Source: a virus (taxonomy: Duplodnaviria > Caudoviricetes). From it: a DNA stretch of 64,000 bases. The notes under the pieces were generated by a model. That model had not been told where the DNA came from and did not search any database. It worked only from the letters and a program-made list of their open reading frames with translations. Within the stretch, counting starts at the first letter, position 1. Each line of letters starts with the position of its first letter. A program made the translations under genes and the position numbers. Below are positions 12,479 to 13,340 of the stretch, piece after piece. The stretch lies in the IMG/VR virus record IMGVR_UViG_3300022848_000005; one strand, given 5' to 3'.

Positions 12479-12934
12479 ATGGCATATGATTATCCTTGGA
12501 TTTATAAAGAAAACGAGTTTCAATCAGAAGACATCGGCGAATATTATGGCTTTGTATATCGAATCACAAACACAACTAACGGGCACGATTATATAGGTAG
12601 GAAGTTCTTCCACACCATTAAGAAACGACCTCCCTTAAAAGGCAAGAAAAACAAAAGAAGATCAACAGTGGAAACAGATTGGAAAACTTATTGGGGATCC
12701 AGTCAAAATCTACAGGCAGACATAGACAAACTAGGCAAAGAGAAGTTCACACGGGAAATAATCAGGCTCTGTAAAACTCGAGGCGAAACCAACTACTGCG
12801 AAACGTATTATCAATTTATAGAAGGTGTACTGTTAAAGGAAAACAACTATAACGGTATTATCAACATTAGACTTGGTGGTAACTCAGTAAAAGGTCTTTT
12901 AATTGAGGACTTAAACATAAAAACTAAACTTTAA
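12479..12934 (+). CDS. Small GIY-YIG endonuclease (Seg-like catalytic domain only)
   Basis: GFVYRITNTTNGHDYIGRK, YWGSS, EII, ETNYCET and NYNG motifs; 151 aa with no appended DNA-binding domain. Confidence 0.8.
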   Translation: MAYDYPWIYKENEFQSEDIGEYYGFVYRITNTTNGHDYIGRKFFHTIKKRPPLKGKKNKRRSTVETDWKTYWGSSQNLQADIDKLGKEKFTREIIRLCKTRGETNYCETYYQFIEGVLLKENNYNGIINIRLGGNSVKGLLIEDLNIKTKL

Positions 12935-13340
12935 CATTAGCCACTAATGCAGAGTGTTTTCTCTGTGTCCTATGAGGTGATTGCGGTGACGCATGGAACT
13001 CCCAAGAATAGACTTGGGAACGGGACGGCAAACAGGCATTTAAGTATAAAAACTAAATGATCTAGGCTCTGTGAAACAGATACAACCTAGGAGTAACTGT
13101 AAGTTGGCTAATTACGACTTGCAGACTACCGTTGCATGAAGCTAGAGTAAGGGGTACCGGGCAACCGCCTCTGTTCTGAAAAGAAATCTCTTTTAATTAG
13201 TATGGACTAAACTCAGATGATGTCTATTATTTCTCCTAGCAATAGGAGAAGTATGGCTCACATCTAGATGATACCAGTAAAAGCAATTATTAATCTTAAA
13301 GTTTAAAAAAAGATTGTTTGAACGTTAGTGAAAACAATAG
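12935..13340 (+). ncRNA. Putative large structured non-coding RNA of unknown family
   Basis: About 400 nt with no ORF in the track and at least 9 hand-identified stems, 4 of them capped by GNRA tetraloops (GUGA, GCAA, GAAA, GCAA). Confidence 0.6.

What the first reader, a model, noticed from the sequence alone, without database searches (positions are those of the whole stretch)
12479..13340. Catalytic-domain-only GIY-YIG paired with an adjacent large RNA: candidate ribonucleoprotein nuclease
Homing GIY-YIG enzymes such as I-TevI and the Seg family usually carry separate DNA-binding domains. This 151-aa protein has only the catalytic core plus a basic insert (KKRPPLKGKKNKRR) that could bind RNA. 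The structured RNA follows with no gap and no terminator. By analogy with compact nuclease-plus-RNA systems (TnpB/IscB with omega RNA, HEARO), the RNA might scaffold or guide the nuclease, or inhibit it. This is a hypothesis only: I see no guide or target match.
Basis: inference. Interest (0 to 1): 0.7.

Follow-up and report, generated by a model that had tools for sequence, protein, structure and literature searches.

The report
Phage nuclease gene paired with RNA
A T4-like phage from a salt lake carries a tiny DNA-cutting enzyme gene followed directly by a large, previously undescribed folded RNA; in 257 of 258 related phage fragments this RNA sits downstream of such a small nuclease gene, which suggests, but does not prove, that the two work together.

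Summary
Window 12479-12934 encodes a 151-aa I-TevI-like GIY-YIG catalytic domain with no DNA-binding domain. From its stop codon a ~340-nt RNA follows. It has strong covariation, one pseudoknot, no Rfam match and + strand polarity.

Searches that start from the RNA found two RNA subfamilies in IMG/VR. Of 258 loci with enough flank, 246 have the small GIY-YIG gene upstream on the same strand. Eleven have an unrelated small PD-(D/E)XK nuclease there instead, and one has none. Extra genes are sometimes wedged between nuclease and RNA.

The reverse does not hold. About a third of sampled GIY-only relatives, and all three cultured ones examined, lack the RNA.

New here: a 7-nt segment (c) occurs twice in the RNA, 50-68 nt apart. 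It changed at least 14-23 times per variable position on the RNA tree, always in both copies. It has no complementary partner in the RNA or its flanks.

Linkage is near-absolute from the RNA side, but binding, guiding and targets are all untested. My best reading is a functional nuclease-RNA module (about 0.5). A self R-loop mechanism is the favoured but weak guess (about 0.2).

The parts
12373..12444 (+). Three overlapping sigma-70-like promoter matches in the gp46-GIY gap. This is the candidate promoter of the module.
   Evidence: GTTACA-18-TATAAT, TTGACA-16-GATCAT, TTGGCA-18-CATATT. These are consensus matches only, not above shuffles as a set (6 found against 3.9 +/- 1.8).
12479..12934 (+). 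151-aa GIY-YIG nuclease, catalytic domain only, with a basic beta-hairpin insert (residues ~45-65).
   Evidence: In the 20-sequence alignment the Tyr of the GIY motif (Y27), Y38 and G40 of the YIG motif, E108 and N125 are invariant.
12935..13273 (+). Structured RNA of a family absent from Rfam 15. It has a 5' junction domain (P1-P4), P5-P7, a pseudoknot, P8 and the twin-heptamer 3' domain.
   Evidence: no Rfam match even at E<=10; covariation; homologues.
13108..13114 (+). Pseudoknot 5' strand (CUAAUUA in the P7 loop). It pairs with 13194-13200.
   Evidence: 85% of cells paired and 6 of 7 pairs change on both sides (for example AU 65 / UA 30; CG 46 / UA 16).
13194..13200 (+). Pseudoknot 3' strand (UAAUUAG).
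13150..13172 (+). P8, the most conserved hairpin (AGGGG-UAC-CGG-GCAA-CCG-CCUCU). It was the anchor of the pattern used for the RNA-first scan.
   Evidence: 100% paired; GC<->AU exchanges at two pairs, 78/21; one invariant G-U pair.
13215..13221 (+). Heptamer c1 (AGAUGAU), directly after the conserved ACUC, in the loop of hairpin 13202-13207/13222-13227.
13228..13253 (+). P11 hairpin between the two heptamers.
   Evidence: 95.8% paired, 5 pairs with changes on both sides.
13266..13272 (+). Heptamer c2 (AGAUGAU), directly after the conserved AUCU. It is identical to c1 in 97 of 101 unique type-A homologues.
   Evidence: the same layout occurs in subfamily B.
13274..13314 (+). AT-rich spacer of variable length.
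   Evidence: 72-76% A+T, against 55% in the RNA body and 61-63% in the loci. Length 13-155 nt across homologues.
13315..13337 (+). Conserved hairpin (UUGUUU...AAAACAA; CUUCGAGCGUAAGCGAAG in relatives).
   Evidence: Alignments; present in both RNA subfamilies.
13339..13357 (.). Perfect 8-bp hairpin that could act as a terminator in both directions. It overlaps the stop of the convergent hexapeptide-transferase gene (13343-14029, - strand).
   Evidence: scored as a terminator on the - strand; conserved as AGAUGUC-GUA-GACAUCU + U-run in relatives.

Best explanation
Window 12373-13357 is one co-oriented module of a T4-like phage. It consists of a promoter-like region, a 151-aa I-TevI-like GIY-YIG catalytic domain with no DNA-binding domain, a ~340-nt pseudoknotted RNA of a new family that starts at the stop codon, an AT-rich spacer and a terminal hairpin.

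SHOWN: the protein fold and its conserved catalytic motifs; the RNA structure and its strand; and the fact that this RNA family almost never occurs without a small nuclease gene upstream on the same strand. That gene is usually this GIY-YIG and sometimes a PD-(D/E)XK nuclease. Also shown: a heptamer present twice in the RNA varies freely between phages but always identically in both copies, with no complementary partner nearby.

INFERRED (about 0.5): RNA and nuclease are a functional pair, and the RNA supplies the site selection that the domain-less nuclease lacks.

FAVOURED MECHANISM (about 0.2, inference only): the loop copy c1 of the transcript pairs with the template DNA strand at c2, 50-68 nt downstream. 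This is the one pairing that requires only c1 = c2. It would seed an R-loop beside the AT-rich spacer, in the manner recalled for the ColE1 RNA II primer (from my own knowledge, not checked here). A structure-selective nuclease would then nick or cut that R-loop, creating a recombination or replication start next to the gp47/gp46 end-processing genes.
For: Type A, RNA-first scan: of 153 loci with enough flank, 141 have GIY upstream (34-90% identical to the window protein), 11 have PF24608 PDDEXK_15 (E 1e-21 to 1e-26) and 1 has neither.

Type B, RNA-first scan: 105 of 105 have GIY upstream.

The neighbourhood is otherwise fluid. Between gp46 and GIY there are 0-2 kb of other genes, the content after the RNA varies, and the hexapeptide-transferase gene occurs only in close relatives.

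GIY and RNA diverge together. The PDDEXK proteins linked to the RNA are themselves only 45-50% identical to each other, so that pairing is also old.

All GIY ORFs seen are intact at 139-157 aa with invariant motif residues, unlike decaying selfish endonuclease genes.

Contigs from RNA libraries of two studies run from the GIY 3' part into the RNA.

Twin heptamer: 97 of 101 are identical; Fitch parsimony gives 23, 14 and 16 changes at the three variable positions; mutual information is ~1.0 with the twin and at most 0.46 with any other column. The complement of a phage's own c is not enriched in 1.86 Mb of flanks (90 observed, 106 expected).

The spacer after c2 is AT-rich.

PHROGs labels the substitute nuclease 'RusA-like Holliday junction resolvase', that is, structure-selective.
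Against: There is no physical evidence of any protein-RNA contact, R-loop or cleavage.

About 21 of 61 sampled GIY-only relatives lack the RNA and lie in other contexts, as do Melnitz, P-TIM68 and S-SCSM2R. The enzyme family therefore works without this RNA.

In 14 type-A loci one or two unrelated ORFs sit between nuclease and RNA, and about 13 type-B loci have widened gaps of which only two were inspected. Tight coupling of the two genes is therefore not needed.

All loci come from one syntenic region of related phages, so the counts are not independent events.

No GIY residue tracks the heptamer.

A transcript is always complementary to its own template, so the need for a second copy is argued only by analogy.

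The RNA-library contigs may be DNA carry-over.
Confidence: 0.5

Rival explanations
1. The RNA is an autonomous, conserved phage ncRNA of unknown function. The small nucleases are free-standing selfish (Seg-like) endonuclease genes parked beside a conserved target, as T4 seg and mob genes are. Different endonuclease families compete for the same slot, and the RNA simply shares their transcript.
For: The Pfam family is SegE-type and PHROGs relatives are labelled homing endonucleases. Two unrelated nuclease families occupy the same slot. A second, full-length GIY-YIG with an extended C-terminal region (repeat motifs seen by eye) is wedged between the small GIY and the RNA in L035, L112 and L118. 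A Vsr-like endonuclease sits in the neighbouring fractured gp46 (note e1-5320015). This shows the region attracts endonuclease genes. GIY-only relatives also occur elsewhere without the RNA.
Against: Occupancy is 257 of 258, not the patchy presence/absence typical of mobile endonuclease genes. The ORFs are all intact and co-diverge with the RNA down to ~35% identity. The protein has no DNA-binding domain with which to find a homing site. This reading gives no reason for the twin heptamer.
Confidence: 0.25
2. The RNA is a cis-acting or antidote element for a dangerous nuclease. It could be a long 3' UTR that limits the enzyme's expression, or an RNA that binds and holds it inactive (type III toxin-antitoxin-like), which is why it always travels with a nuclease gene.
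For: The order and orientation (nuclease first, RNA second, one terminator) are invariant. There is no terminator between them.
Against: A 340-nt multi-domain pseudoknotted RNA is far more than such control needs. Unrelated ORFs can sit between the two genes. Unrelated nuclease folds would need the same inhibitor. Many GIY-only relatives exist without it. The idea does not explain the matched heptamers.
Confidence: 0.1
3. The RNA is a programmable guide in the OMEGA/CRISPR sense. The two identical heptamers base-pair with two copies of a complementary site in foreign DNA or RNA (host or rival phage), and the bound nuclease cuts there.
For: The heptamer is the only fast-changing, phylogeny-independent part of an otherwise conserved scaffold. 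One copy sits in a hairpin loop. The nuclease lacks its own targeting domain.
Against: Seven to eight nucleotides give little specificity. No target was found. A phage's own heptamer and its complement are not clearly avoided in its own flanks (190 against 219 and 90 against 106). Pairing with an outside target would tolerate A/G differences between the copies opposite a U, yet the copies are kept identical. There is no transposon or array context, and no GTDB species-representative genome (bacterial or archaeal) carries the RNA core.
Confidence: 0.07
4. The two heptamers are kept identical by a copying process at the DNA level (slippage or micro-conversion between imperfect ~25-nt direct repeats, or a site-specific recombination core), not by any function of the RNA.
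For: The repeat extends beyond c (GUAUGRC ... YCUY-c in both modules). The spacing is a narrow 50-68 nt. T4-type phages recombine intensely (established knowledge).
Against: The flanks ACUC and AUCU stay different while c is homogenised. No homologue has lost the intervening segment. RNA-library contigs bridge c1-c2 without a joint. The GUAUGAC duplication is explained by one shared pairing partner, GUCAUA, lying between the copies.
Confidence: 0.06

Closest known systems
HEARO (HNH endonuclease-associated RNA and ORF; later shown to be IscB with its omega RNA), and TnpB with its omega/reRNA
   Same: A large conserved structured RNA is genetically locked to a compact nuclease gene. It was found by comparative genomics before any function was known. 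The RNA is much larger than a simple regulatory element.
   Different: The nuclease here is GIY-YIG (or PD-(D/E)XK), not RuvC/HNH. The RNA lies downstream of the gene and is not at a transposon end. The variable segment is 7 nt, internal and duplicated, not a terminal ~16-nt guide copied from flanking DNA. No Rfam family matches, HEARO included.
Free-standing GIY-YIG homing endonucleases of T-even phages (SegA-G) and I-TevI
   Same: The same catalytic fold and Pfam family. It is a phage gene sitting between conserved genes.
   Different: Seg proteins and I-TevI carry C-terminal DNA-binding modules (established knowledge). This protein ends ~25 residues after the catalytic core. Its distribution is near-universal in its lineage rather than sporadic.
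T4 gene 60 bypass element with mobA (an endonuclease plus a 50-nt insert flanked by matched GGA codons, a mobile cassette; bioRxiv 10.1101/2022.08.31.505936)
   Same: A T4-type phage, an endonuclease gene beside a ~50-nt insert containing a hairpin, and flanking short identical sequences. In most homologues c even reads as a sense codon followed by UGA or UAA.
   Different: No long reading frame enters c1. The landing copy is again followed by a stop. The repeat is 7-8 nt, not 3. The surrounding sequence is a covarying RNA, not a protein gene.
R-loop primers: ColE1 RNA II, T4 oriF/oriG (from my own knowledge, not checked here)
   Same: A structured transcript whose upstream segment is proposed to pair with template DNA further downstream next to an easily melted AT-rich stretch. 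This would demand same-strand sequence identity at two places.
   Different: There is no evidence here of replication initiation, RNase H processing or hybrid formation. GC skew in the window follows gene orientation only.
Large phage-borne ncRNAs of unknown function (GOLLD, ROOL)
   Same: Large, ornate, phage-associated and of unknown function.
   Different: There is no sequence or structure match in Rfam. Those RNAs are not reported to be linked to a nuclease gene (my own knowledge).

Membership tests
GIY-YIG nuclease superfamily (SegE-type, PF19835) | Profile match above the curated cut-off | tested here: met
   134.9 bits against a cut-off of 25, E 2.3e-39.
GIY-YIG nuclease superfamily (SegE-type, PF19835) | GIY and YIG motifs plus a conserved Glu and Asn | tested here: met
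   Y27 of the GIY motif (GF[VI]Y in the alignment), Y38 and G40 of the YIG motif, E108 and N125 are invariant in 20 sequences down to 38% identity. Assignment of E108 and N125 to I-TevI E75 and N90 is by order and spacing only.
GIY-YIG nuclease superfamily (SegE-type, PF19835) | alpha/beta catalytic fold as in I-TevI | tested here: met
   Foldseek top hits are 1LN0 and 1MK0, probability 1.0, TM 0.68 by target, although E is only 0.02-0.04. The model has pLDDT 88.
Free-standing homing endonuclease (Seg/Mob type) | Separate DNA-binding domain that selects the homing site | tested here: not met
   The catalytic domain spans 7-124 of 151 residues; the tail has low confidence and no Pfam domain.
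Free-standing homing endonuclease (Seg/Mob type) | Sporadic presence among closely related genomes; decaying copies | tested here: not met
   Present in 246 of 258 RNA-bearing loci, and every ORF seen is intact.
Free-standing homing endonuclease (Seg/Mob type) | Cleaves the endonuclease-free allele and is copied into it | not testable with these tools
   This needs an enzyme assay or mixed infection.
RNA-guided nuclease systems (OMEGA IscB/TnpB, CRISPR) | RNA and nuclease gene co-occur | tested here: inconclusive
   RNA to nuclease: 257 of 258. Nuclease family to RNA: about two thirds of a 61-locus sample; absent from the cultured relatives examined.
RNA-guided nuclease systems (OMEGA IscB/TnpB, CRISPR) | Variable guide segment complementary to a target | tested here: not met
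   A variable heptamer exists, but no complementary site was found at a fixed place or in excess in the flanks. No target is known.
RNA-guided nuclease systems (OMEGA IscB/TnpB, CRISPR) | RuvC and/or HNH nuclease; transposon ends or repeat array | tested here: not met
   The nuclease is GIY-YIG or PD-(D/E)XK. The locus is fixed between gp46 and the baseplate genes.
Any Rfam 15 family (including group I/II introns, HEARO, GOLLD, ROOL, tmRNA, RNase P) | Covariance-model match | tested here: not met
   No hit at gathering score. At E<=10 there are only two chance-level hits outside the core. ARAGORN finds no tRNA or tmRNA.
Group I intron carrying an endonuclease ORF | Interrupts a host gene whose exons flank it | tested here: not met
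   gp46 is complete before the module (its homologues align through its last residues, to 658-660). The next gene is on the other strand.
Translational bypass cassette (T4 gene 60/mobA type) | Coding gap inside a long ORF with matched take-off and landing codons | tested here: not met
   Matched sequences 50-68 nt apart are present, but no ORF of 40 aa or more covers the region and the frame into c1 is 7 codons long.

The most novel reading that the evidence does not exclude
The RNA programmes where a domain-less nuclease (GIY-YIG, or PD-(D/E)XK in some phages) cuts, through its two matched heptamers. It would do this either by seeding an R-loop on its own gene (a self-made recombination or replication start beside gp46/47) or by pairing with a foreign target. 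Either way this would be the first RNA-directed nuclease built on these two folds.
Probability: 0.2. Interest if true: 0.9.

Novelty: new variant of a known kind. Interest (0 to 1): 0.75.

Why it matters
As far as I know, all RNA-directed nucleases described so far use RuvC, HNH, HD or recombinase chemistry. A GIY-YIG or PD-(D/E)XK enzyme that depends on a structured RNA would open a new branch, and a very compact one (151 aa plus ~340 nt).

Even if that is wrong, three things stand:
- A widespread, well-supported new RNA family. It has at least 190 distinct sequences in two subfamilies, from freshwater, estuarine, marine and salt-lake viromes.
- A near-absolute gene linkage that makes its function testable.
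- A kind of covariation (identity between two same-strand copies, with no Watson-Crick partner) that standard RNA-structure tools do not look for, and that demands an explanation.

Tried and rejected
- **Rfam.** Nothing at gathering or relaxed thresholds.
- **tRNA/tmRNA.** None.
- **Group I intron.** No model hit and no interrupted gene.
- **Cultured phages.** No blastn or megablast match to the RNA. The closest cultured GIY relatives lack it.
- **GTDB species-representative genomes (bacterial and archaeal).** 0 matches to the RNA core pattern.
- **PDB sequence search.** Nothing for either nuclease.
- **Own-genome search.** No genome is held for this window. There is no paralogue of the GIY or the RNA within the window.
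- **Cis partner for the heptamer.** No fixed complementary site within -900..+300 nt. No column with Watson-Crick covariation. The hits near -570 are the GFVY codons, a coincidence for A-rich heptamers.
- **Pairing of the strand after c1 with the sequence after c2.** Not above shuffles (4.2 against 4.3).
- **GIY residues tracking the heptamer.** None.
- **Extra copies of TAGATGATA in the window.** These are Asp codons and a repeat inside a large ORF.
- **Small ORFs ending at c1 or c2.** Frames are not conserved.
- **Excision or splicing between c1 and c2.** No joint in RNA-library contigs and no homologue lacks the segment. Contigs cannot exclude rare forms.
- **Self-avoidance of the heptamer.** Weak and not significant.
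- **GC skew as an origin signal.** It follows gene orientation only.
- **First pass of 17 'no GIY' loci.** Five turned out to have GIY further upstream behind an inserted ORF and 11 have PDDEXK.
- **Not attempted.** A covariance model of the whole RNA, because of the size limit on calibration. The structure was checked on a MAFFT alignment, which under-counts pairs in length-variable helices (P3, P4, lower P7, P10).
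Full report
**What is in the window**

The ORF at 12479-12934 (+) encodes 151 residues. It matches Pfam PF19835 (SegE_GIY-YIG) over residues 7-124 at E 2.3e-39. An AlphaFold model built on 20 homologues is confident (pLDDT 88, pTM 0.82). It shows the GIY-YIG sheet and helices, an inserted beta-hairpin whose loop is the basic stretch KKRPPLKGKKNKRR, and an unstructured last ~25 residues.

Its best structural neighbours are the two crystal entries of the I-TevI catalytic domain: probability 1.0, TM 0.68 relative to the target, E only 0.02-0.04. 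In the alignment, Y27 of the GIY motif, Y38 and G40 of the YIG motif, E108 and N125 are invariant down to 38% identity. PHROGs places the protein in a family with a 148-residue profile that carries the propagated mislabel 'NAD synthetase'. 'Catalytic domain only' is therefore correct.

Upstream lies gp46 (Rad50-like), with sigma-70-like promoter matches in the 77-nt gap. Downstream of the ORF there is no + strand ORF of 40 aa or more until the convergent hexapeptide-transferase gene at 13343-14029. No terminator-like site lies between the ORF and the non-coding stretch.

**The RNA is real and new**

The 408-nt stretch folds better than shuffles: z -3.8 on the + strand and -2.6 on the - strand. 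It matches no Rfam 15 family, even at E<=10, contains no tRNA or tmRNA, and has no nucleotide match in 50,697 phage records.

Homologues were easy to find in IMG/VR. I counted a hand-derived structure on 99 distinct sequences with pairwise identity down to ~50%:
- 75% of cells are paired, against 37-46% when partners are slid.
- The covariation score is 0.255, against 0.07-0.10 for slid controls.
- 0 of 500 shuffles reach the observed score.

The best-supported elements, with changes on both sides, are:

| Element | Cells paired | Note |
|---|---|---|
| P2 | 89% | closes a multi-helix junction |
| P6 | 90% | |
| P7, upper part | 71% | 7 of 8 pairs compensatory |
| Pseudoknot (P7 loop 13108-13114 with 13194-13200) | 85% | 6 of 7 pairs compensatory |
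| P8 | 100% | two GC<->AU exchanges, one invariant G-U |
| P11 | 96% | |

The invariant and frequent G-U pairs place the RNA on the + strand. Helices of variable length (P3, P4, lower P7, P10) score lower on this unrefined MAFFT alignment.

The structured part ends near 13273. After it come an AT-rich spacer, a conserved hairpin (13315-13337) and a perfect 8-bp hairpin (13339-13357) that overlaps the stop of the convergent gene.

*Protein-first search.* All relatives of 72% identity or more with enough flank have the RNA starting within a few nucleotides of the stop codon. They always lie between gp46 and the baseplate-hub genes, while the genes around the pair vary.

*RNA-first search, type A.* I scanned for the P8 core pattern. 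Of 153 loci with 700 nt or more upstream, 136 have the small GIY within 1.3 kb. Of the 17 others:
- Eleven have a ~173-aa PF24608 'phage putative PDDEXK endonuclease' in the same slot (E 1e-21 to 1e-26).
- Five have the GIY further upstream, behind an inserted ORF (an SGNH-like 340-aa protein, a radical-SAM protein or unknown proteins).
- One (L155) has neither.

In nine more loci an extra ORF sits between GIY and RNA. In L035, L112 and L118 this is a second, full-length GIY-YIG endonuclease with a C-terminal extension.

*A second RNA subfamily, type B.* It turned up in long non-coding gaps after more distant GIY genes. Its 5' and central parts do not align with type A, but it shares the 3' module and the terminal hairpins. 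A scan for its own core found 119 loci. All 105 distinct ones with enough flank have GIY upstream.

*Totals.* 257 of 258 loci have a small nuclease gene upstream on the same strand.

*The reverse direction is weaker.* A profile scan found more than 575 GIY-only relatives. Of 61 with 700 nt or more downstream, about 40 have the RNA and about 21 do not. The latter lie in other genomic contexts with short gaps. The cultured relatives examined (Methylophilales phage Melnitz, Prochlorococcus phage P-TIM68, Synechococcus phage S-SCSM2R) have no such RNA.

No GTDB species-representative genome, bacterial or archaeal, carries the RNA core.

**An unexpected feature: a heptamer kept identical in two places**

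In the 3' domain the sequence after a conserved ACUC recurs after a conserved AUCU, 50-68 nt downstream. The first copy is c1 (13215-13221, AGAUGAU), in the loop of a covarying hairpin. The second is c2 (13266-13272). P11 lies between them.

Across type A, c follows R-G-A-U-R-A-W. All eight combinations occur, plus rarer forms such as GAAUAAU, AUGGGAA, ACAUGAA, AGACGAA and GGAUGAG. The two copies are identical in 97 of 101 unique sequences. Type B has the same layout with ACAUGAA, ACAUAAU, ACAUGAU, ACGUGAA, GCAUAAA and others.

On a tree built from the rest of the RNA, the three variable positions changed at least 23, 14 and 16 times, each time in both copies. Near-identical RNAs differ by a matched A/G switch.

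The mutual information of these columns is ~1.0 with the twin column and at most 0.46 with any other. So they are uncoupled from phylogeny and have no Watson-Crick partner in the RNA. Further checks:
- No complementary site lies at a fixed place within -900..+300 nt.
- The complement of a phage's own c is not enriched in 1.86 Mb of flanks: 90 observed, 106 expected. A single encoded partner per locus would have added ~240.
- No GIY residue tracks c.
- No homologue lacks the intervening segment, and RNA-library contigs bridge it without a joint.

A second duplicated piece (GUAUGAC, before each copy) is explained differently. One complementary strand (GUCAUA) between the copies can pair with either one.

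**Expression**

Six metatranscriptome runs hold parts of the stretch. When four of them were laid on the sequence, contigs at 80-95% likeness from two studies (marine, salt marsh) ran from the 3' part of the GIY ORF through the RNA to about 13250-13294. This fits co-transcription in relatives but is weak, because DNA carry-over in RNA libraries cannot be excluded and contigs give neither ends nor levels.

**Interpretation**

Shown:
- A catalytic-only GIY-YIG gene.
- A new structured RNA on the same strand.
- Near-absolute dependence of the RNA on an upstream small nuclease gene, of either of two unrelated folds, in an otherwise fluid neighbourhood.
- Co-divergence of the RNA and the nuclease gene.
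- The matched heptamers.

These facts fit a functional pair better than a selfish endonuclease parked beside a conserved gene. The latter should be patchy and decaying, and it needs a DNA-binding domain. I put the functional pair at about 0.5 and the parked-endonuclease reading at about 0.25.

On how the pair might work, the only constraint on c is identity between two same-strand copies. That is what pairing of the transcript's c1 loop with the template DNA strand at c2 would require. The spacer just after c2 is 72-76% A+T, against 55% in the RNA body. PHROGs labels the substitute nuclease resolvase-like. The module sits next to gp47/gp46, which process DNA ends for recombination-dependent replication in T4 (established knowledge). 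An R-loop cut by a structure-selective nuclease is therefore my favoured mechanism, but it is inference only (about 0.2).

A guide aimed at foreign DNA, an antidote or UTR role, and DNA-level copying of the repeat remain as rivals.

The system fails the defining features of OMEGA-type systems (nuclease fold, terminal guide, transposon context). It also fails those of Seg-type homing enzymes (DNA-binding domain, sporadic distribution). It resembles HEARO at the time of its discovery: a large RNA locked to a small nuclease gene, function unknown.

**Limits**

- All loci are metagenomic fragments of one syntenic region in related phages, so the counts are not independent events.
- The structure was not refined with a covariance model.
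- No genome is held for this window.
- Three literature searches found no description of this RNA, but the library is incomplete.

Noticed in passing
window 9105-12401: gp46 homologues align only from residue 125 of the 660-aa ORF at 10419-12401. The extra N-terminal 124 residues end in ...SHN|T, like an intein C-terminal part, and a 366-aa ORF (9343-10443) overlaps its start.
   Followed up: partly
window 23158-23269 and 23493-23580: Two tandem glutamine riboswitch aptamers (RF01739, 48 and 62 bits) and a freshwater-2 RNA (RF02980, 65 bits) lie in the same window.
   Followed up: no
L202, L206, L208, L217, L222, L224, L237-L239, L242, L244, L249, L253 and L258-L376: A second RNA subfamily ('type B', core TCGAYGTAGGTWGGGWAAGGTYAGAGCCCA) follows more distant GIY-only genes. 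It shares only the twin-heptamer 3' module and the terminal hairpins with the window's RNA. L215 looks like a third form (c = GGGUAAU, with a P8-like GGGGUAGCGCAAGACCGCCUC).
   Followed up: partly
L035:4454-5155, L112 and L118 (between the small GIY and the RNA): A second, full-length (224-233 aa) GIY-YIG endonuclease with repeated C-terminal motifs, seen by eye and not profile-tested, is inserted exactly between the small GIY gene and the RNA 5' end. In other loci the inserted gene at that boundary is an SGNH-like 265-342-aa protein (L077, L137, L161, L176, L094, L114, L158), a radical SAM/SPASM protein (L093) or an unknown protein (L139, L157).
   Followed up: partly
L155 (RNA at about 1584-1930, - strand of the locus): This is the only RNA-bearing locus with no detectable nuclease gene within 5 kb upstream. 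Its RNA is divergent, with the unusual heptamer AUGGGAA in both copies.
   Followed up: no
PHROG 447; Prochlorococcus phage P-TIM68 gp170 and Synechococcus ACG-2014f phages: The ~145-aa GIY-only proteins of cultured cyanophages are annotated 'NAD synthetase'. By profile they are SegE-type GIY-YIG domains, so this looks like a propagated misannotation.
   Followed up: partly
window 31997-32080 and 33320-33403 (inside ORF 30925-35667): At least 61 nt are identical at the two places, 1323 nt apart, inside the 1580-aa ORF. This suggests an internal duplication of a domain.
   Followed up: no
L218 and L250 (between GIY and the type-B RNA): A ~90-100-aa ORF (...NGIWPTGKHQG...KYL.WAG.NLKSKHMKYAANNEL.RRYH.GEIKL) is inserted between GIY and the RNA in some type-B loci.
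   Followed up: no
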